A stretch of 39,348 bases of DNA. Origin: a virus. Location: the UHGV virus genome UHGV-0146801. One strand, written 5' to 3'. Positions 691-14,645 of this stretch are shown here, in pieces. The translations under genes and the position numbers were made by a program. Position 1 is the first letter of the stretch. Each line of letters opens with the position of its first letter. Under the pieces are notes generated by a model. It was not told where the DNA came from. It did not search any database and saw nothing but the letters and a program-made list of their open reading frames with translations.

Positions 691-1743
691 TTACGGGGTA
701 ATGCCAACCGCTGCCGCCACTTTGTCGCCACTTGGCAGCGTTGCCAGAGGATTGAAACGGAGCGCCGTTTCCAGATGATCCGGTGCCAGATGTGCGTAAC
801 GCATAGTCATTTTTATATCGTGGTGTCCGAGAATTTTTTGTAAGGCCAGAATGTTTCCACCCGACATCATGAAGTGCGCCGCAAACGTATGGCGCAGAAC
901 GTGTGTGAGTTGACCGCGAGGGAGCACGATAGACGTTTTTTCCATCACGGATAAAAATTGAAAATAGCAGTCTGTAAAGAAATTGAACCCATCAAGCGCC
1001 ATGATCTCTTCGTAAAGCTCTTTACTTATAGGGATGCTTCTGTTTTTCTTCCCCTTCGTTCTGACAAAGGTAATTCGGTATTTGGTCACCTGTGAGCGGG
1101 TAAGATTTACGGCTTCACGCCAGCGTGCGCCTGTGCTTAAGCATATCTTAACTACCAGTGCCAGAATTGGGTCCTGACGTTTGCAATCAGCCAGCAATTC
1201 AACAATCTGCTCATGGGTAAGCCATGCCATCTCTTTTTCTGCGATGGTGAATTTTCGCATGTTCTCCAGTGGGTTCGGATACGACCATTCGCCCAGACGG
1301 GATAGTTCGCTAAAAACACTACTTAGATAGCTTTGCTCCAGGTTAATGGTGACCGGGCTTGCTCCTTTCTTCCATTTCTCGCTGAAGTAGATCTCGCCTG
1401 TCAGGCGTTTATCTCGATAGTGGGCAAACATTTTAGAGGTGAGATCGGTTGCAAGAGGATTGCCCAGAGCGTCAACCATCAACAGCAATTTGTCATAGAC
1501 ATGCTGCCCAGCTGTCAGAGATTTACCATGTAGTTTGAACCATAGCTCAACCACGTCTTTCAGTGTTCGACGATCCACTGATTCACCCAGCCAGGGCTTT
1601 GCTTCGGTTTCTTCCATCGTGTGGCGCTCAAAAGCCAGAGCTTCGCCTTTGGTGGCGAATTGTTTACGCACCCGACGCCCACTACGTCCGGCGGGGTAAC
1701 ATTCGCAAAGCCATTTTCCTGTGGTGAGTTTTCGTACTGCCAT
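691..1743 (-). CDS. int: Tyrosine integrase, P2-type
   Basis: 350 aa; C-terminal catalytic region with HVLRHTFA...LGHHDIKMTMRYAHL (R..HxxR..Y signature); adjacent to att repeat. Confidence 0.9.
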   Translation of the reverse strand: MAVRKLTTGKWLCECYPAGRSGRRVRKQFATKGEALAFERHTMEETEAKPWLGESVDRRTLKDVVELWFKLHGKSLTAGQHVYDKLLLMVDALGNPLATDLTSKMFAHYRDKRLTGEIYFSEKWKKGASPVTINLEQSYLSSVFSELSRLGEWSYPNPLENMRKFTIAEKEMAWLTHEQIVELLADCKRQDPILALVVKICLSTGARWREAVNLTRSQVTKYRITFVRTKGKKNRSIPISKELYEEIMALDGFNFFTDCYFQFLSVMEKTSIVLPRGQLTHVLRHTFAAHFMMSGGNILALQKILGHHDIKMTMRYAHLAPDHLETALRFNPLATLPSGDKVAAAVGITP

Positions 1744-1829: not shown

Positions 1830-3347
1830 TTAATCAAATGATGTGGCCAGTTCAATTAATTCAATGTAATTATGTAAGGCATAAAAAGATGTATTCAGTC
1901 CATTCTCTATAAGGGCTCCTTGCAAATACTTTATAGCTGTATCACCATCAATAGGGCCTTGTTGAGATTTAATCATTAGTGAATTTTGCCCATTGTTTTT
2001 TATACTTGATTTAAGTATTTTTATATTATTGATAAAATACAATGCAACATCTAAGTAATTTATTAATGTTAAACTTATTTTGGGCTCGATCTGTGAGATG
2101 AATAATCTACTGTTCGCCGTTGTATAGATATAATTGACACCTATTCTTTGCTGATTTGTATCAAGATTTAATTCAAGGATGGCTTGAGAAACACCTTTTA
2201 AATTGGAGCTTTGCTTTATCGAATCAGTGAAACGTTGTGCTGCATTTCTTCGACCAATTAGTCCATCTATAATTTGACGATCCTTATCATATATAATCAT
2301 TAGCGAAATTATAAAAATATAATCTACTTTCTTTTTGACTAAATCAGATTTAAGAATGTCTATTAACCTTTCAGTATTTCGGATTGAGTCTCTTAGATTT
2401 AACCCAAATGCTTCAAATACGTTGGAAATATTTATTGAAAAGTCTTCTAATGTTGCGGTTAGTGGGTATGTTTTTGATGTGATATTTTCAAACTCGGTAC
2501 CAATATAATCACCAACAACACCATTAATTAAATCTTTAAGTTCAGGTTGTTTTAAAGTAAATCTTCTATGAAAAAAACGGCCTAAATAGTCATTTGCGGA
2601 AAAATCATTACCGTAAACATTCTTGATTGAATGTTGTAATTGATCTGTGTCAGTAGCAATAATAAAGACAAAATTTTTAATATCGAATATATGTTTAACA
2701 ATCTCTAAAAGAGAAATTGCATAATCTGGCCTGCATCTGTCTAATTCATCTATAAAGATAAATATAGGACATGAAAAACTATTTTCATATGCCAACCTAG
2801 ACCATAACGTAAGTTCTTTTTTTAATACCTTAATGCTCTTCAGTTTTTCCTGGTGTTCCTTCAGCATTATTAATGAGGCTTCTTTGGCTATATCACCTAC
2901 GTTATCTACTCCTGCATAAGTCTTGATTAGGCCAGATATGATTTCAGGTAGAACACCTTTTGTAAAGCGTCCGATAGCATGGCCGCTTTGTATCAATCGA
3001 GCATCAAGTTTTCCTGCATATGTTTGCAATTGTTGTGACAAAGAAGAAAAAAGGGTTAAAAATGCATCATCAGAAAAGTCTTGCTTCCAGGCATCAATGT
3101 AAACGCATGGGTGTGCATCTTTTATTGAGTTATAAAATCTCTTTATGAAAAAACTTTTACCAGCTCCCCATTCTGCATTAAGGTTGATTACCGTGTTGTT
3201 CTTTTGCCCCTTTTCCTTAAGATAAAAATATAGATATTCTGCATAGTGTCTCCGATTAAGTTTGTCTTTGGAGAGAATTTCCTCTTCGTCGTCTAATATA
3301 AAGGTAGTTTCTTCATCCCAGTTCCAATTACAATCACCACATTTCAC
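1830..3347 (-). CDS. KAP-family P-loop NTPase (cargo, candidate defence gene)
   Basis: 505 aa; Walker A with KAP-type tryptophan NAEWGAGKSFF and Walker B IFIFIDELDRCRP (DELDRC motif); AT-rich coding sequence. Confidence 0.8.
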   Translation of the reverse strand: MKCGDCNWNWDEETTFILDDEEEILSKDKLNRRHYAEYLYFYLKEKGQKNNTVINLNAEWGAGKSFFIKRFYNSIKDAHPCVYIDAWKQDFSDDAFLTLFSSLSQQLQTYAGKLDARLIQSGHAIGRFTKGVLPEIISGLIKTYAGVDNVGDIAKEASLIMLKEHQEKLKSIKVLKKELTLWSRLAYENSFSCPIFIFIDELDRCRPDYAISLLEIVKHIFDIKNFVFIIATDTDQLQHSIKNVYGNDFSANDYLGRFFHRRFTLKQPELKDLINGVVGDYIGTEFENITSKTYPLTATLEDFSINISNVFEAFGLNLRDSIRNTERLIDILKSDLVKKKVDYIFIISLMIIYDKDRQIIDGLIGRRNAAQRFTDSIKQSSNLKGVSQAILELNLDTNQQRIGVNYIYTTANSRLFISQIEPKISLTLINYLDVALYFINNIKILKSSIKNNGQNSLMIKSQQGPIDGDTAIKYLQGALIENGLNTSFYALHNYIELIELATSFD

Positions 3348-3372
3348 TATGAAGTCTCCATGAAAAATTTAC

Positions 3373-4296
3373 TTAATGTAAACAACTTATAATAACTTTT
3401 GCAATAAACTCAATGTCTGTAAGCGAACATTCAAAAGAGTGATTTTTGGATGAAATATAAACTCGTCCTTTAGGTAGTCGAGTTATCATTCTAAATGAAT
3501 TCTCTCCATCAATATTTACTAGCCACTTACCATCATGTACATCTTTAAAACCCATTTCACATATTAATTCAGAGTCTTCGGTAGATACTACGAATGCATT
3601 TTTTAAATTGGAAGGTAGAAAACATGGGTCAAATAAATATGAGCCATCATTTATTAACTTGCCATTGATTAATACTTTTTTCACTAATGTTAAAGTATCT
3701 TTATTTTTTGCGTTTTTCATTTCTCCTGTACCAAATGAAATCCATTCAATAGAATGGCCCGTTTCTATTGCACACTGCAAAACCCAGTCTGCAGGAAAAA
3801 TGTCACGCATGTATCGTGTGGCTAATGTGCTTTTTGAAATACCTAGGTGATCAGCTAATGCTTGGCGCGTTTTGTAACCGTAAGCCTCGACAATTCGTTC
3901 TATTGTTGCCTTACCCCCTCGGTTAAAATTCATGAGTTTTTCATTATCGAACTTTATAGTGGGAATGTATACTTCATTGCAAAGGCCATTAACGGCATGT
4001 TTTTCAGAATATTGCTCTGATGAAGGAGCAGTATCTGAACCAAGAACTAACCATTCAATTGATGCTCCTGTTTCTATGGAACATATAACAACCCAATCTG
4101 CAGGAAAGGTATTACGTGCATATCTGTTGGCCATAGTACTTTGGGAAATACCTAGATGATTACATAATGCCTGTCGTGACTTGAAGCCATAGGCTAGGAG
4201 TATACGCTCAATAACTTTTTGCCCTCCACGATTCTGCATGACTATTGCTTTCAGATCGTTTTTGATATGGCTAAATTTTAATTTTTGAGTTGACAT
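3373..4296 (-). CDS. CI-repressor paralog with two tandem N-terminal HTH domains and a CI-like C-terminal domain
   Basis: 307 aa; two copies of the I(E)R(I/M)(L/V)xAYG(F/Y)K(S/T)RQAL..HLGISxST(M/L)A.RY.R..FPADWV block, and a C-terminus that aligns with the adjacent CI (LPKGRV vs LPGGRI, FLPSNLKNAFVV vs FLPSTLKNPFVI). Confidence 0.75.
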   Translation of the reverse strand: MSTQKLKFSHIKNDLKAIVMQNRGGQKVIERILLAYGFKSRQALCNHLGISQSTMANRYARNTFPADWVVICSIETGASIEWLVLGSDTAPSSEQYSEKHAVNGLCNEVYIPTIKFDNEKLMNFNRGGKATIERIVEAYGYKTRQALADHLGISKSTLATRYMRDIFPADWVLQCAIETGHSIEWISFGTGEMKNAKNKDTLTLVKKVLINGKLINDGSYLFDPCFLPSNLKNAFVVSTEDSELICEMGFKDVHDGKWLVNIDGENSFRMITRLPKGRVYISSKNHSFECSLTDIEFIAKVIISCLH

Positions 4297-4346: not shown

Positions 4347-4922
4347 TTACTCAAAGTACTTAACTGTTATGGTTATAATTTTTCCAATAATTTCGATTTC
4401 TTCTTTTTTACATTCGAAAGCCCTATTTCCACCTTCAACTAAGATTCTTCCACCAGGTAAACGAGTGATATCGCGGATTGTTACTTCGGCATCAATACTT
4501 ATTACCCATTTGCCGTCACGAATATCGTTAAACTCTTTATCGCAAATAAAAACGGAATTGTTATCGGTGATTACAAACGGATTTTTGAGCGTAGATGGTA
4601 GAAATTCTTTATCGAAAATATAAAAACCATCTTCCTGCAAGGTTCCATCAGATAATACATATTTAACGACTTCCATAGTATTTGTATTACCTGAAGTTTG
4701 CTTTGAACCATGTCCGGTCGTGAGCCAGTTAAGCGAGGCGCCCGTTTCAAGTGCGCACTGGATTACCCATTCAGCAGGGAATGAGTCACGCATATAGCGT
4801 GTGGCGAGAGTACTTTTAGAGATTCCTAAGTGATCGCACAACGCCTGTCGAGTCTTGAAGCCATATGCTTCTACCATGCGCTCTATAGCGCCTCGTCCGC
4901 CTTTCTCCAAATTCATGGTCAC
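4347..4922 (-). CDS. cI: Immunity repressor CI, phage 186 type
   Basis: 191 aa; N-terminal HTH (AYGFKTRQALCDHLGISKSTLATRY) and C-terminal oligomerisation-like domain; divergent from apl/cII as in 186. Confidence 0.85.
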   Translation of the reverse strand: MTMNLEKGGRGAIERMVEAYGFKTRQALCDHLGISKSTLATRYMRDSFPAEWVIQCALETGASLNWLTTGHGSKQTSGNTNTMEVVKYVLSDGTLQEDGFYIFDKEFLPSTLKNPFVITDNNSVFICDKEFNDIRDGKWVISIDAEVTIRDITRLPGGRILVEGGNRAFECKKEEIEIIGKIITITVKYFE

Positions 4923-11245: not shown

Positions 11246-11437
11246 GAAATGTTGCCCCCAGGAGGATTCATTCTGATGGGGGCTAGTTTGGGCAATGAGT
11301 GAAATAAGGCGTAAGGTGGGCGGTTATTTTGATCAGTGATCGTCCGCTTTGTGTCAGAAGCAGAAGTGGGAGTGTCTGAGACTCTCTAAAAGTTGATGAT
11401 TCACTTACAAAACCATTTTCCTGATGGATGCTTACAC

Positions 11438-11773
11438 TTACGAATGATCATTCTGTTTAGTCTTCATGAGAAAATCCCGAATCTTTGCCAAGTTTGAATT
11501 TTCGGGGATTGAATCCATGTACGGATCACGCTCAAACACTAATTGCTCAGATTCAACGAAAGCCTGCCACTCTACTGGGTCTAGCTCAAATCCCATTGCT
11601 GTCATATCACTTTCATCTTCCCCCTCGATCCAGTGGACTAAATAAAACAATTCATCATCAGGAGAATCATCCTCACCATCAACAATATCAACATCGGTTA
11701 CAGTGATACGTAGGGTGGGATCGATTTTTGAGACATAAATTCCTAACTGTGGTATAGGGGGAATATTGTTCAT
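11438..11773 (-). CDS. Small, highly acidic protein (candidate DNA mimic or anti-defence)
   Basis: 111 aa with about 25% Asp+Glu and few basic residues; runs of DGEDDSPDDE and EGEDESD. Confidence 0.6.
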   Translation of the reverse strand: MNNIPPIPQLGIYVSKIDPTLRITVTDVDIVDGEDDSPDDELFYLVHWIEGEDESDMTAMGFELDPVEWQAFVESEQLVFERDPYMDSIPENSNLAKIRDFLMKTKQNDHS

Positions 11774-12291
11774 GGAAACTCCTTTTATTGGTGTTTGCTA
11801 TTTGAATAAAAATACGCCAAACAGAGTGTTAACTGTGAATATGGAAAGAATCGTTGTAAGTACCCCGCTTAGGTGTCCCATTCTATTTTAGAGGTTCTCG
11901 TGCATATGGATTATGTTATCTGAAAGTTAACTTCCGCTTCCCGTTCACAGCGAACATTCATCTTTGTAAACCCGTATGATCCGTTTTTCAAGTGGCCATT
12001 CAGATACGGATTTTTACTTCTTTGACAGTGCATGACTATGCTGCATGAAATCGCATGATCGATTGAGGATCGTCTTTGCTCAGATCCGCCAGAACTGGCG
12101 GGCTTTTGCTCATGTCATGCATGTGCATGAAAACCACTGCATAAAGCGGGCAGGCGTGGCGGGGATACGAGCGCGCGCGGATACATAATTAATAATATAA
12201 CATAAAATGTTAAGTTGCTTTTGCGTTAGCACTGGATTACATTACCGAAATAGTCAAAAATGCGTTTTTTACGCAAAAATGAGGACTTCAG

Positions 12292-13521
12292 ATGCTAGTT
12301 GCATTCAGTTTAGAAAATTACAAGAGCTTTCGCGAAAGACAGGTTCTTAGTTTTGCTTCCTCAATTGGGGATGAGCATCCTGAACATATCGTGACATTAG
12401 CGAATGGTTTAAGAGTAAACAGATTTGCCGCATTAATAGGCGGAAATGGTGTTGGTAAAACACAATTAATAAATGCTATTACTGAATTTGCAAATTCAAT
12501 TCATAGTGACACATTACACAAATTGCATATGCCTTTCCTTCTAAATAAGGAATGTCGTAACAAACCTACTTCCTATGAAGCGATACTGATTGATGAAGAG
12601 CAAAAAAACTTCGTCCGTTATGGTGTGTCAGTTTTAAATGAAGTTATTGTAGATGAGTATTTATACATTAGACCGATAAGAAAAAATGCAAGGGAACAAT
12701 GTATTTTTATTCGCAATGAAAATGGGTTGGTTTTCAAAAAGCCCGACTTAAAAAAATACGAGTCGTTGATTAATCCTGTCTTAAGAGAAAGTGGAGCTGT
12801 TGTAACTTTTGCAAAATCTTTAGAAATTGATGCTCTTGTTGAAACCCAACGCTGGGCATTAAAACAATTGCCTTATTACTCTGAAAAATTCAAAAATCCA
12901 AGTCTTAAATTTGTTGAAGGACAACTTAAGCGCCAGTTATCAGGTGAGGAAGGAAATGAAAAATTAAATGAGAGTGGTCAAAGAATTTTAAATACCTATA
13001 ATGAAATGGTTATTCAGTCGCCGCTGCATATAGATAAAGTTGAATTTGTAAGATTTGGCGAAGATAATGAGTATAAATTTGTTTATCTCATAAAAAATGA
13101 TGATGGTGATTTTACTAGAATAGGCCCTGACCGTAGGGATGAATTTTTTTCCCAAGGCACACTAAATGTTTTAACATTTTTAGCAATATTGATTTGGGCT
13201 AGTGAATATGATTTTACACTTTATGTGGATGAAATAGATTCATCTATTCACTATTCTTTGGCAAGTGCACTAATCAAAAAAATATTTGATAAAACCTGCC
13301 GTAAAAATGGTGTGCAGTTTATTATGTCTACACATAATATTCCTTTATTAGATGATGTGTTTAGAAGAGATGAGCTTAATATTATAGTCAAGGATTCATC
13401 TAAAGCGTCGATAATAACTAATGCTACGGTATTTTCTGTAAGGAAAGATGCTAAAGTGTCTGCCAAATATTTACGTGGCGAATTTGGATTAGTTCCAGCT
13501 TTTCTTGATATAAAAAACTAA
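12292..13521 (+). CDS. ABC/OLD-type P-loop ATPase (AAA_15/21-like)
   Basis: 409 aa; Walker A GGNGVGKT, signature-like FSQGT, Walker B/D-loop LYVDEIDSSIH, H-loop MSTHN; AT-rich. Confidence 0.8.
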   Translation: MLVAFSLENYKSFRERQVLSFASSIGDEHPEHIVTLANGLRVNRFAALIGGNGVGKTQLINAITEFANSIHSDTLHKLHMPFLLNKECRNKPTSYEAILIDEEQKNFVRYGVSVLNEVIVDEYLYIRPIRKNAREQCIFIRNENGLVFKKPDLKKYESLINPVLRESGAVVTFAKSLEIDALVETQRWALKQLPYYSEKFKNPSLKFVEGQLKRQLSGEEGNEKLNESGQRILNTYNEMVIQSPLHIDKVEFVRFGEDNEYKFVYLIKNDDGDFTRIGPDRRDEFFSQGTLNVLTFLAILIWASEYDFTLYVDEIDSSIHYSLASALIKKIFDKTCRKNGVQFIMSTHNIPLLDDVFRRDELNIIVKDSSKASIITNATVFSVRKDAKVSAKYLRGEFGLVPAFLDIKN

Positions 13522-13534
13522 GCGTGAGAAAAAC

Positions 13535-14614
13535 ATGACTAGCTTTGCTTATGATGGTGATATTTTGACACCTAATAATTTAGAAATTACATCCTTCGCC
13601 ACATTGAAATCAAAAATAAGAGAGCGAAGAGTATGTGTTTTTCTCGGAGCAGGATTTTCTAAAGCCTGGGATGACAAATACCCATTGAGTAATGAAGTCT
13701 TTTCCATCTCTGAAGACGAAGCATTAGAAAATATTGATGAGTATGGTTTTTTTTCTTTGTTCGACAGTCTTAAATTTAAATGGGCGGATGCTAATGCAGG
13801 TTTAGATGACAAAGCTAATGTTTTCAAGAGTTTTAAATATGCATTGGATGTTTATAAGCGATATCCAAGTTTATTGCCGTCGTATCTTGATAGGCATACG
13901 CTTGAGTTGTTTGAGGCACAAGTAAAACTATATGTAAAAAATAAGTTTGCAAAAAAAATACCGGCAAATGATTTAAAGCTAAGTCAAACTGCAAAATTTG
14001 GGCAGAATAAAAGGAATATTATTTCTTTCTTTAAGAGTTTACAGGAAGCTTCAGCACTGGATGTAGTCACAACAAACTACGATATAGTTATTGATAAAGT
14101 GCTACATCATGCATTCCCTGAACGTTCAGTTAATCGGGGTTTTCCTGTGCATCATAATAATATATTAGTGTGTCCTCAGCCTAAAGGTATAGGTTTGTAT
14201 AAGCTTAATGGAGGATTTGAGGTTGTTGCTGCAAGGGATGGTTTTAAAATAGATTATGATTCATTATTAAACGCAAAAGTTGTTCCAAATATTATCTTGC
14301 CTTCAAATGAACAAGACTATGGGGATAAATACTTTAAGTCAGCTTTTGTGAAATCCTCTACCCAGTTGAGACAAGCAGATCTGTTGATCTTTATAGGTTA
14401 TTCTTTCCCAAAGGAAGACTTTATTATTAATTTTCTTTTGAAGACTTTTCTGGATGGCGATAGTACTGAAAAAGAGACTGTTATTATTGGGCGAAATAAA
14501 TCTAGTGCTATTGAGATACACCAGCGTGCGTGTGAAGTTTTTAAAGAACTAAATGATAAATCTGCACTGTATTATTTCGGTGGTAGTTTTTCTGATTTAT
14601 GTAAACAATGTTAG
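13535..14614 (+). CDS. SIR2-like (DHS-like NAD-binding fold) protein, candidate NADase effector
   Basis: 359 aa; Rossmann motif VCVFLGAGFS, TTNYD motif (VVTTNYDIVID), C-terminal LLIFIGYSFPKED; 13 bp downstream of the ATPase. Confidence 0.75.
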   Translation: MTSFAYDGDILTPNNLEITSFATLKSKIRERRVCVFLGAGFSKAWDDKYPLSNEVFSISEDEALENIDEYGFFSLFDSLKFKWADANAGLDDKANVFKSFKYALDVYKRYPSLLPSYLDRHTLELFEAQVKLYVKNKFAKKIPANDLKLSQTAKFGQNKRNIISFFKSLQEASALDVVTTNYDIVIDKVLHHAFPERSVNRGFPVHHNNILVCPQPKGIGLYKLNGGFEVVAARDGFKIDYDSLLNAKVVPNIILPSNEQDYGDKYFKSAFVKSSTQLRQADLLIFIGYSFPKEDFIINFLLKTFLDGDSTEKETVIIGRNKSSAIEIHQRACEVFKELNDKSALYYFGGSFSDLCKQC

Positions 14615-14619
14615 TATAC

Positions 14620-14645
14620 TAGGCCTGATTACAGGCCTATTTTCT
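14620..14645. terminator. Hairpin TAGGCCTG-atta-CAGGCCTA followed by TTTTCT between convergent SIR2-like and Q genes
   Basis: Perfect 8-bp stem with 4-nt loop and T-run on the + strand. Confidence 0.55.

What the first reader, a model, noticed from the sequence alone, without database searches (positions are those of the whole stretch)
12292..14614. Two-gene cassette in the P2 tin/old hotspot: OLD/ABC-type ATPase plus SIR2-like effector, candidate undescribed anti-phage system
Between replication gene A/DinI-like and portal Q (where P2 carries tin and old) sits an AT-rich operon of a 409-aa ATPase (Walker A GGNGVGKT, signature-like FSQGT, Walker B LYVDEIDSSIH, H-loop MSTHN) and, 13 bp downstream, a 359-aa SIR2-like protein (GAGFS Rossmann motif, TTNYD). 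ATPases of this family pair with nucleases in PARIS, Septu and Gabija, and SIR2 domains act as NAD-depleting effectors in Thoeris, DSR and SIR2-HerA. I cannot place an ATPase-then-SIR2 pair of this size in a named system. It is not Lamassu-like by size or order (LmuB is a much larger SMC-like protein). The working hypothesis is an abortive-infection module in which the ATPase senses infection and the SIR2 partner depletes NAD+.
Basis: partly seen in the sequence, partly recalled or inferred. Interest (0 to 1): 0.88.

Follow-up and report, generated by a model that had tools for sequence, protein, structure and literature searches.

The report
AbiL-type ATPase paired with His-less SIR2
A P2-like prophage carries, at its known defence-gene hotspot, an untested two-gene module: the sensor ATPase of AbiL-type anti-phage systems, paired not with the usual nuclease but with a sirtuin-like enzyme whose catalytic histidine is always an asparagine. 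It is probably a new variant of a known defence design, with uncertain chemistry.

Summary
Two co-oriented ORFs (12292..13521, 409 aa; 13535..14614, 359 aa; 13-nt gap) form an AT-rich cassette between P2 genes A/DinI and portal Q.

- **ORF1** is a catalytically intact ABC (AAA_21/AAA_15) ATPase. Its best PADLOC match is AbiLi (E 2e-51). Its 25-35%-identical relatives are each followed by an RloB/TOPRIM gene, which is the canonical AbiL layout.
- **No library names the pair.** Rousset 2022 Table S5A lists these exact proteins as "AAA_21 + SIR2_2", and I found no test or name for them there.
- **The pair is conserved.** ATPase then SIR2 appears in 8 of 8 loci checked (SIR2 34-100% identity), on P2-like prophages, a P4-like satellite, an integrase islet and Vibrio inoviruses. 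The two proteins co-diverge.
- **New point.** ORF2 belongs to a discrete SIR2_2 clade in which the catalytic His is invariably Asn (HGSxN becomes NGGxE, with further concerted changes). The NAD-binding motifs are kept.

NAD+ cleavage is plausible, but simple NADase equivalence is not shown. ADP-ribosyl transfer, as in SirTM, is a live alternative. Verdict: a new effector-swap variant of ABC-ATPase defence systems, unvalidated. Interest about 0.6.

The parts
12180..12291 (+). AT-rich 5' leader of the cargo cassette (presumed promoter region and RBS). The left junction with the conserved P2-like backbone lies at about 12179-12191.
   Evidence: Megablast of 11246..14643 against 5,426 E. coli genomes: more than 1,300 records match only query 1-933/946 (window 11246 to about 12178-12191), and only one record continues further. 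The sequence turns AT-rich at 12180, and GAGGA lies 7 nt before the ATG. A terminator-like hairpin at 12085..12102 upstream implies the cassette has its own promoter. The consensus scan found no strong sigma-70 match here, so the promoter is inferred, not shown.
12292..13521 (+). AbiLi-type ABC ATPase (409 aa), the presumed sensor/scaffold.
   Evidence: PADLOC AbiLi PDLC02335 E 2.2e-51; weaker hits to PDC-M12A and AriA (about 1e-16). Pfam AAA_21 and AAA_15 are above gathering threshold. Invariant across 24 homologues: Walker A G50/N52/G55/K56, signature S287/G289/T290, Walker B D313-E314, H320, H-loop H348. The AF2 model (pLDDT 86.2) matches Rad50/SMC heads, PtuA (Septu, retron I-A) and OLD with probability 1.0. 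Relatives at 25-35% identity are followed by RloB genes.
13535..14614 (+). SIR2_2-family protein (359 aa) of the His-to-Asn ('NGG') clade, the presumed NAD+-dependent effector.
14620..14639 (.). Terminator-like hairpin (TAGGCCTG-ATTA-CAGGCCTA followed by a T-run) between the SIR2 stop (14614) and the convergent portal gene stop (14644).
   Evidence: Terminator scan: 8-bp stem with 5 GC pairs, T-rich tail. The sequence was read directly. Function is inferred from the pattern only.

Best explanation
This is a two-gene, prophage-borne anti-phage (superinfection-exclusion / abortive-infection) module of the 'ABC-ATPase sensor plus toxic effector' class. It is most closely derived from AbiL, with the RloB/TOPRIM nuclease partner replaced by a SIR2_2 enzyme.

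**Proposed mechanism.**
1. The AbiLi-type ATPase oligomerises and holds the SIR2 partner inactive. This is inferred from PARIS and Septu.
2. A phage-made trigger is sensed by the variable insert regions of the ATPase, and ATP binding or hydrolysis releases or activates SIR2. This step is inferred.
3. SIR2 binds NAD+ through its retained GxGxS / TTNYD / GYS...D motifs and cleaves the nicotinamide-ribosyl bond using a remodelled active site (N181, D183, R201, N225, E229, Q260 in place of the canonical Asn-His dyad).
4. The most likely outcome is NAD+ depletion and growth arrest of the infected cell, which stops phage replication and protects the lysogen population.

**What is shown:** gene structure, folds, intact ATPase motifs, family relationships, conserved pairing, and location on mobile-element hotspots.

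**What is inferred:** defence function, physical complex, trigger, and the exact NAD+ chemistry.
For: - **ORFs, operon signals and AT-rich cargo at the P2 A-Q hotspot**. This hotspot is documented as a reservoir of defence systems (PMC9122126).
- **ATPase identity.** AbiLi family, with invariant catalytic motifs and an ABC head fold like PtuA/OLD. Relatives pair with RloB, the canonical AbiL layout. AAA_15/21 ATPases are known to combine with many effector types (PMC11464382; Payne et al. preprint).
- **SIR2 fold** nearest the NADase subunit of SIR2-HerA. NAD-binding motifs are shared with canonical SIR2_2.
- **Conserved pairing.** The pair is in the same order, with a 20-nt gap to an 8-nt overlap, in 8 of 8 independent loci spanning SIR2 identities of 34-100%. 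Pairwise identities of the two proteins co-vary (Pearson r 0.94).
- **Carriers are four kinds of mobile element:** P2-like prophage, P4-like satellite next to AbiE, an Ogr/integrase islet next to an RM system, and inovirus prophages.
- **Rarity.** 1 of 5,426 complete E. coli genomes carries it, typical of hotspot cargo.
- **SIR2_2/'SIRim' proteins as a class** are strongly associated with immunity.
Against: - No experimental test exists. I found none in Rousset 2022, where the pair is only listed.
- The catalytic His is absent. That His is required for NADase activity in GsSir2 and FAM118B, and is among the catalytic residues whose mutation abolished protection by Paenibacillus SIR2-HerA. Here it is an invariant Asn, so bulk NADase activity cannot be assumed.
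- More distant members of the same Asn clade are stand-alone genes with housekeeping neighbours and no defence enrichment that I could see. This weakens guilt by association for the SIR2 clade as a whole.
- No physical interaction was modelled.
- No clear sigma-70 promoter was found upstream.
Confidence: 0.55

Rival explanations
1. Same sensor-effector architecture, but the SIR2 is an ADP-ribosyltransferase rather than a bulk NADase. On activation it ADP-ribosylates a specific protein or nucleic-acid target (host or phage), without necessarily depleting NAD+.
For: - The His to amide substitution has a precedent. In SirTM sirtuins the catalytic His is replaced by Gln137, and N118/Q137/R192 form the catalytic trio of a robust protein ADP-ribosyltransferase (PMC8120803).
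- The window's clade has N181, an invariant R201 (43/43 versus 10/31 in canonical relatives) and N225, plus concerted S227G, N229E and K260Q changes. This indicates a remodelled active site under selection, not decay.
- The Asn is invariant across about 100 sequences from many phyla.
Against: - The Arg is at a different sequence position than in SirTM.
- No macrodomain or other ADP-ribose-reversal gene is linked in any of about 50 loci scanned.
- A new Glu (E229) could equally serve an NADase, by analogy with TIR/CD38-type NADases (my own knowledge, not tested here).
- All defence SIR2 domains characterised in the papers I read are NADases.
Confidence: 0.22
2. The SIR2-like protein is a non-catalytic, NAD(P)/nucleotide-binding regulatory or sensor subunit (a pseudoenzyme), and the biological effect comes from the ABC ATPase or from sequestration. 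Alternatively, the pair is a toxin-antitoxin-like addiction or maintenance module of mobile elements with no anti-phage role.
For: - The canonical catalytic His is lost.
- Distant clade members are stand-alone genes in housekeeping neighbourhoods.
- PARIS-type systems behave formally like type II TA pairs (PMC13064643).
- About a quarter of P2 hotspots carry non-defence cargo such as partition systems.
Against: - Pseudoenzymes usually drift at former catalytic positions. Here N181, D183, N225, G226, E229 and Q260 are invariant or nearly so over wide phylogenetic distance.
- The ATPase has no effector domain of its own.
- Its closest relatives are sensor partners of nucleases.
- Carriage on four unrelated kinds of phage or satellite element at cargo sites fits exclusion functions better than maintenance.
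Confidence: 0.13
3. The locus is simply an instance of an already named system (AbiL, PARIS, SIR2-HerA/Nezha, Lamassu-Sir2, Thoeris or DSR).
For: There is a strong AbiLi profile match for ORF1 and SIR2-HerA-like structural similarity for ORF2.
Against: Each named system fails on a defining component:
- no RloB/TOPRIM or DUF4435 partner;
- the ATPase is ABC-type, not a HerA/DUF87 RecA-like hexamer;
- no long SMC coiled coil;
- no SLOG or TIR domain;
- ORF2 is 359 aa, not a roughly 1000-aa DSR.

ORF2 hits only generic SIR2 models in PADLOC, at E 1e-9 or weaker. SIR2 is not among the partner domains used to annotate known AAA_15/21 defence systems. No paper text in the library contains the accessions or both Pfam names.
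Confidence: 0.07

Closest known systems
AbiL (AbiLi + AbiLii; Lactococcus, widespread)
   Same: ORF1 is an AbiLi-family ABC ATPase (PADLOC E 2e-51). It is a two-gene operon with the ATPase first and tight coupling. The C-terminal FSVRKDAK...Y..G..G..P block and all ATPase motifs are shared with RloB-paired relatives.
   Different: The second gene is a 359-aa SIR2_2 protein instead of the roughly 205-220-aa RloB/TOPRIM nuclease. The ATPase insert region (about res 195-280) differs from that of RloB-paired relatives.
PARIS (AriA ABC ATPase + AriB DUF4435/TOPRIM), found in P4/P2 hotspots
   Same: Same ATPase superfamily (AAA_15/21; AriA model E about 1e-16). Same kind of mobile-element hotspot. 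It supplies the likely logic: the ATPase scaffold sequesters the effector and releases it on sensing a phage protein.
   Different: The effector is a tRNA-cleaving TOPRIM nuclease in PARIS and a SIR2 here. The ATPase is closer to AbiLi than to AriA. The trigger is unknown.
SIR2-HerA (Nezha)
   Different: The partner ATPase is a HerA/DUF87 RecA-like hexameric translocase there, not an ABC ATPase. Gene order there is SIR2 first. The catalytic N/D/H triad (N163/D165/H212) has His where this protein has Asn.
SirTM (macrodomain-linked ADP-ribosylating sirtuins)
   Different: Different sirtuin subfamily. SirTM is linked to a macrodomain, GcvH-L and lipoate ligase, and none of these occurs here. The Arg is at a different position. 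SirTM is not a phage-defence protein.
Septu / retron I-A PtuA and P2 Old
   Same: The ABC ATPase head fold is similar (Foldseek probability 1.0). P2 Old occupies the very same locus in phage P2 and also excludes other phages.
   Different: The partners or fusions there are HNH (PtuB) or TOPRIM (Old). Sequence similarity is weak (PtuA model E 8e-9).
Lamassu with SIR2 effector (LmuB SMC + LmuA-Sir2)
   Same: The concept of an ABC/SMC-family ATPase working with a sirtuin effector is already known.
   Different: LmuB is a much larger SMC-like protein with a long coiled coil. This ATPase is 409 aa with short helical inserts. No LmuB model is among its top PADLOC hits. The gene order and sizes differ.

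Membership tests
AbiL | AbiLi-type ABC (AAA_21) ATPase encoded first | tested here: met
   PADLOC PDLC02335 AbiLi E 2.2e-51, 172.9 bits, the best of 67 families. Relatives at 25-35% identity sit in AAA_21 + RloB operons.
AbiL | AbiLii partner with RloB/TOPRIM nuclease domain | tested here: not met
   ORF2 matches only SIR2 models in Pfam and PADLOC, with no RloB/TOPRIM/DUF4435 hit. The fold is SIR2. There is no third ORF between 12180 and 14643.
PARIS | AriA ATPase plus AriB (DUF4435 TOPRIM) | tested here: not met
   AriA models reach only E 4.6e-16 and 4e-12, far below AbiLi. No DUF4435 protein is present.
SIR2-HerA (Nezha) | HerA/DUF87 RecA-like hexameric ATPase partner | tested here: not met
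   ORF1 is AAA_21/AAA_15, and its model matches Rad50/SMC/PtuA/OLD heads, not HerA.
SIR2-HerA (Nezha) | SIR2 subunit with the N/D/H catalytic residues (N163, D165, H212 in Paenibacillus SIR2) | tested here: not met
   Asn and Asp are present (N181, D183). The His position is N225 in the profile-to-8w9l alignment, and it is invariant in the clade.
SIR2_2 (Pfam PF13289) / 'SIRim' sirtuin subfamily | Profile match above gathering threshold and a Rossmann-type SIR2 fold without a Zn module | tested here: met
SIR2 NADase effectors (ThsA, DSR, SPARSA, SIR2-HerA) | Asn-His catalytic dyad required for NAD+ hydrolysis | tested here: not met
   His is replaced by Asn in 43 of 43 full-length clade representatives, against His in 31 of 31 canonical relatives. 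The dyad requirement is documented. NADase activity itself was not testable here.
Lamassu (Sir2 subtype) | LmuB SMC-like ATPase with a long coiled coil; LmuA effector | tested here: not met
   The 409-aa ATPase model has only short helices between the head halves. The top PADLOC hits are AbiLi, PDC-M12A and AriA, not LmuB (only the best 25 of 67 families were displayed).
Thoeris / DSR | ThsA SIR2-SLOG with TIR ThsB; or a single large (about 1000 aa) DSR protein | tested here: not met
   ORF2 is a 359-aa single-domain protein. There is no TIR gene in the cassette.
SirTM | Sirtuin with His to Gln and linkage to a macrodomain/GcvH-L/LplA operon | tested here: not met
P2 A-Q ('tin/old') hotspot cargo | Variable insert between replication gene A/DinI and portal Q, next to cos | tested here: met
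   Gene order is given. The flank is shared by more than 1,300 E. coli records while the insert is unique to one. The hotspot is defined in PMC9122126, and the exact proteins are listed in its Table S5A.
Validated anti-phage defence system | Experimental protection against phage | not testable with these tools
   No experiment was found. In Rousset 2022 the pair is listed only in the table of loci, and only arrangements seen at least 10 times were curated.

The most novel reading that the evidence does not exclude
An AbiL/PARIS-type ABC-ATPase infection sensor has captured a member of a previously unrecognised, phylum-spanning clade of sirtuins. In that clade the catalytic His is replaced by Asn, with concerted HGSxN to NGGxE, K to Q and invariant-Arg changes. 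This effector would act not by bulk NAD+ depletion but by a different NAD+-dependent reaction, such as target-specific ADP-ribosylation. That would make it the first ABC-ATPase/sirtuin defence system and would define a new catalytic class of immune sirtuins carried by P2, P4 and filamentous phages.
Probability: 0.22. Interest if true: 0.82.

Novelty: new variant of a known kind. Interest (0 to 1): 0.62.

Why it matters
If it is active, this would add SIR2 to the list of effectors driven by AAA_15/21 ABC-ATPase sensors. That list is so far TOPRIM, HNH, PD-(D/E)xK, NERD, PIN and UvrD. It would also give a compact (2.4 kb) system for asking how one sensor family couples to chemically unrelated effectors.

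The more interesting part is the SIR2. A sharply delimited clade, found across many phyla, has swapped the catalytic His for Asn while keeping the NAD pocket. Finding out what it does (NADase with a new catalytic arrangement, ADP-ribosyltransferase, or something else) would test how far "SIR2 means NAD+ depletion" can be generalised in bacterial immunity. It would also bear on phage NAD+-reconstitution counter-defences.

The pair's presence as cargo on P2-like phages, P4-like satellites and Vibrio inoviruses is a clear example of the same module moving between different phage and satellite cargo hotspots.

Tried and rejected
- **Single-sequence searches of both proteins against PDB sequences:** no hits. 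A family profile was needed.
- **NCBIfam:** nothing above cut-off.
- **PHROGs:** only an unannotated family for the ATPase and none for SIR2.
- **INPHARED phage records:** no DNA or protein match to the cassette or SIR2.
- **Plasmids:** only three distant stand-alone SIR2 hits.
- **A conserved partner of distant Asn-clade SIR2 genes:** phmmer with the ATPase, all-against-all clustering of neighbours, and Pfam on 90 nearest neighbours found none, and no macrodomain.
- **The small ORF after the pair in Vibrio as a possible third component:** it is far more conserved (68-76%) than the pair and unrelated to anything near the E. coli cassette. I treated it as inovirus backbone.
- **The single-gene 'SIR2' that Rousset et al. 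cloned from P4 (pFR88):** its N-terminus (GSGLTKRY...) differs from this clade's GAGFSKAW motif, so I took it to be a different SIR2 without aligning it in full.
- **Literature searches for the accessions, and for 'SIR2_2' with 'AAA_21':** none in main texts.
- **Krishnan et al. 2020 (ABC ATPase classification):** not readable in the library. A prior in-silico mention there cannot be excluded.
- **Not possible with the tools:** complex prediction and inspection of model coordinates.
- **One early literature search was useless:** 'AbiL' matched 'ability'.
Full report
**1. Observation.**

They are on the same strand, 13 nt apart.

The block is strongly AT-rich, with GC 0.32-0.34 against about 0.55 for the surrounding phage genes. 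A GAGGA ribosome-binding site precedes the first ATG. A GC-rich hairpin with a T-run (14620..14639) sits between the SIR2 stop and the stop of the convergent portal gene.

A 99.8%-identical annotated record, the E. coli E9 chromosome, gives this gene order: replication endonuclease (A), hypothetical, DinI-like, DUF8087 (minus strand), AAA family ATPase (WP_000959164), SIR2 family protein (WP_097511163), portal (Q), terminase (P). So the P2 A-Q hotspot context is correct.

Homology with other P2-like prophages runs through the left flank and stops at about 12179-12191. More than 1,300 E. coli records share the flank, but only 1 of 5,426 complete genomes carries the cassette, even at blastn sensitivity. 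The cargo is therefore about 12180..14643.

**2. The ATPase.**

Pfam places it in AAA_21 (52.6 bits) and AAA_15 (39.2 bits), both above threshold.

PADLOC gives one outstanding hit, AbiLi (PDLC02335, E 2.2e-51). The next hits are PDC-M12A and AriA at about 1e-16, then retron, HEC-01A and PtuA models.

All ATPase motifs are invariant in a 24-sequence alignment that includes distant relatives: Walker A G50/N52/G55/K56, signature S287/G289/T290, Walker B D313-E314, H320, and H-loop H348. The enzyme therefore looks catalytically competent.

The AlphaFold model (pLDDT 86.2) is an ABC/Rad50-type head with short helical inserts. Its best matches in the PDB are Rad50 and SMC heads, PtuA of Septu and retron I-A, and OLD.

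Three relatives at 25-35% identity, from unrelated metagenomic contigs, are each followed, with start-stop overlap, by a 203-219-aa RloB (PF13707) gene. This is the canonical AbiL architecture of an ABC ATPase plus a TOPRIM-like AbiLii (PMC13064643; PMC11464382).

**3. The SIR2 protein.**

It passes Pfam SIR2_2 (35 bits, GA 24.5). Modelled with a 27-sequence alignment, it gives pLDDT 89.9 and pTM 0.88.

| Search | Best matches |
|---|---|
| Foldseek | SIR2 subunits of SIR2-HerA complexes (probability 1.0, TM about 0.53-0.58) |

The SIR2 fold is established.

**4. The unexpected feature: no catalytic histidine.**

In the family alignment the invariant residues include GAGFS, T180-N181-Y182-D183, R201-G202 and L221-x-K223-x-N225-G226-G227. 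No histidine is invariant.

A profile search of PDB sequences aligns the family's "LyKlNGGfe" onto "LWKLHGSin" of Paenibacillus SIR2 (8w9l). The putative catalytic residues of that protein are N163, D165 and H212, and mutation of its catalytic residues abolishes protection (PMC11472057).

The same Asn-His dyad is required for NADase activity in two other proteins:
- GsSir2 of SPARSA, where N142A and H186A are dead (PMC10781750).
- Human FAM118B/A, through H206A and N163A (PMC12700824).

An exhaustive profile search of 1.84 billion cluster representatives found 70 proteins at E of 1e-30 or better and 291 at 1e-10 or better.

Aligning the best 150 shows a clean split. Every protein scoring above about 95 bits that covers the motif has K-[LIV]-N-G-G-x-[ED], apart from one N-G-S variant. 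In the next tier (85 bits or less) nearly every full-length protein reverts to K-x-H-G-S; one has N-G-S and three align poorly.

I compared 43 full-length Asn-clade representatives with 31 canonical relatives.

| Category | Residues |
|---|---|
| Shared NAD-scaffold residues | G38, G40, P50, N181-Y182-D183, K223, G226, P251, P256, G288, D295 |
| Concerted clade-specific changes | H225N, S227G, N229E, K260Q |
| Clade-specific invariants | W45, D119; R201 (43/43 against 10/31) |

This is the signature of a remodelled active site under selection, not of a decaying one.

**5. Distribution and partnership.**

A scan of one genome per species, which used L[YFL]K[LI]NGGFE as one of its two search patterns, returned 64 loci. 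They come from Burkholderiales, Flavobacteriia, Chloroflexota, Alphaproteobacteria and others, at 21-35% identity to the window protein.

None of these distant members has an ATPase homologue. They have no conserved neighbour. Pfam on 90 nearest neighbours showed only scattered housekeeping families and no macrodomain. Those distant members are therefore stand-alone genes.

In contrast, every locus examined with a SIR2 at 34% identity or more has the ATPase directly upstream, with spacing from a 20-nt gap to an 8-nt overlap.

| Host | Locus | Setting |
|---|---|---|
| E. coli | window, L001 | P2-like hotspot |
| Klebsiella | L005 | next to portal- and terminase-sized ORFs |
| Serratia | L077 | Ogr/Delta + integrase islet beside an RM system |
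| Providencia | L075/76 | after the primase of a P4-like satellite, next to AbiE |
| Alteromonadales MAG | L079 | short contig beside a transposase-associated gene fragment |
| Three Vibrio species | L002, L080/81, L082 | immediately after Zot (with DUF2523 or DUF5455), i.e. terminal cargo of filamentous prophages |

Pairwise identities of the two proteins co-vary across these loci (Pearson r 0.94 over 28 non-independent pairs). Many ATPase and SIR2 clusters also share the same contigs.

The simplest history is that a stand-alone Asn-clade SIR2 replaced the RloB nuclease next to an AbiLi-type ATPase in a gammaproteobacterial mobile element. The pair then spread as a unit.

**6. Is it already known?**

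Rousset et al. 2022 defined the P2 A-Q hotspot. Their Table S5A lists "AAA_21 + SIR2_2, WP_000959164 + WP_097511163", and a variant with WP_000200278. They curated only arrangements seen at least 10 times, and the P2 systems they report as active were others.

- Burman et al. 2024 annotated known AAA_15/21 defence ATPases with TOPRIM, DUF4435, RloB, DUF4276, UvrD, DUF262, DUF3996, HNH and RVT. SIR2 is not among them.
- Payne et al. list ABC-ATPase systems with TOPRIM, NERD and PIN partners. They note sirtuin effectors only for LmuB.
- PADLOC v2 has no model beyond generic SIR2 that matches ORF2.
- No main text in the library contains the accessions, or both Pfam names.
- I could not read Krishnan et al. 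2020, so an in-silico mention there cannot be ruled out.

I conclude that the pair has been catalogued, but that it is unnamed and untested as far as I can see.

**7. Mechanism.**

By architecture and ancestry, this works like AbiL, PARIS or Septu. An ABC ATPase acts as infection sensor and scaffold, and controls a toxic partner (PARIS logic).

The partner retains the full NAD-binding apparatus and the Asn/Asp of the sirtuin active site, so an NAD+-consuming reaction is the best guess.

- **The case for transfer.** SirTM sirtuins have replaced the His by Gln and use an N/Q/R trio. They are robust ADP-ribosyltransferases. The clade here has N181, R201 and N225.
- **The case for hydrolysis.** The fold is closest to SIR2-HerA NADases. 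No ADP-ribose-reversal genes are linked. The newly fixed E229 could act as the ribose-polarising carboxylate, as in other NADases. That last point rests on my own knowledge and is untested.

My estimates are about 0.55 for a defence module with NAD+ cleavage leading to growth arrest, about 0.22 for the ADP-ribosyltransferase variant, about 0.13 for a non-catalytic or non-defence role, and about 0.07 that it is already a named system.

**8. Verdict.**

However, the pair is an effector-swap derivative of AbiL that had already been catalogued, and the NAD+-depletion step is weakened by the missing catalytic His.

The novelty is a new variant of a known kind. Interest is moderate to high (0.62). 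It is driven less by the ATPase + SIR2 pairing than by the discrete His-to-Asn sirtuin clade and by the module's carriage on P2, P4 and inovirus cargo sites. Everything functional remains to be shown experimentally.

Noticed in passing
window 1830..4296 (minus strand): A second AT-rich cargo block (GC 0.29-0.36) lies between the integrase (691..1743) and the CI repressor (4347..4922). It holds a 505-aa KAP-family P-loop NTPase (PADLOC candidate PDC-S20, E 7e-78; weaker PifA and QatA hits) and a 307-aa protein with two CI-repressor HTH domains plus CI_C. It is probably another defence or exclusion cargo of the same prophage.
   Followed up: partly
L006-L061 (genome-contig loci), e.g. L007:5905-7074, L010:5782-7062: The His-to-Asn ('K-x-N-G-G-x-E') SIR2_2 clade is found across many phyla as stand-alone genes of about 380-400 aa. 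They have unrelated, mostly housekeeping neighbours and no conserved partner. Their function is unknown, and I found no description of the clade in the papers I read.
   Followed up: partly
L002:4781-7478, L080:3731-6507, L082:3793-6605: In three Vibrio species the ATPase-SIR2 pair is inserted between the inovirus Zot gene and a conserved 121-123-aa minus-strand ORF. That ORF is 68-76% identical between species, much more conserved than the pair. This suggests a variable-cargo site in filamentous prophages.
   Followed up: partly
L075/L076:3996-11372: In Providencia the pair sits in a P4-like satellite (P4 cII, alpha-type primase) and is directly followed by a DUF6088 + AbiEii (AbiE) pair. Two candidate defence modules are therefore stacked in one satellite hotspot.
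   Followed up: no
window 11438..11773 (minus strand): A 111-aa acidic ORF (DUF8087; phrog_17127, E 2e-70) lies between DinI and the cassette. Together with the flank up to about 12180, it is conserved in more than 1,300 E. coli records. It is backbone, not cargo, and its function is unknown.
   Followed up: partly
L003:6001-9619: In Vibrio crassostreae an Asn-clade SIR2 (387 aa, 30% identity) has no ATPase. It is followed by a 361-aa protein with no Pfam hit and a DUF4238 protein. A DUF4238 protein is a validated single-gene anti-T7 system in Rousset 2022. This may be a small defence island.
   Followed up: no
window 12085..12102: A terminator-like hairpin (TCCGCCAG-AACT-GGCGGG followed by CTTTTGC) sits on the + strand in the conserved backbone about 190 nt upstream of the ATPase start. 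It implies that the cassette is transcribed from its own promoter, which was not identified.
   Followed up: no
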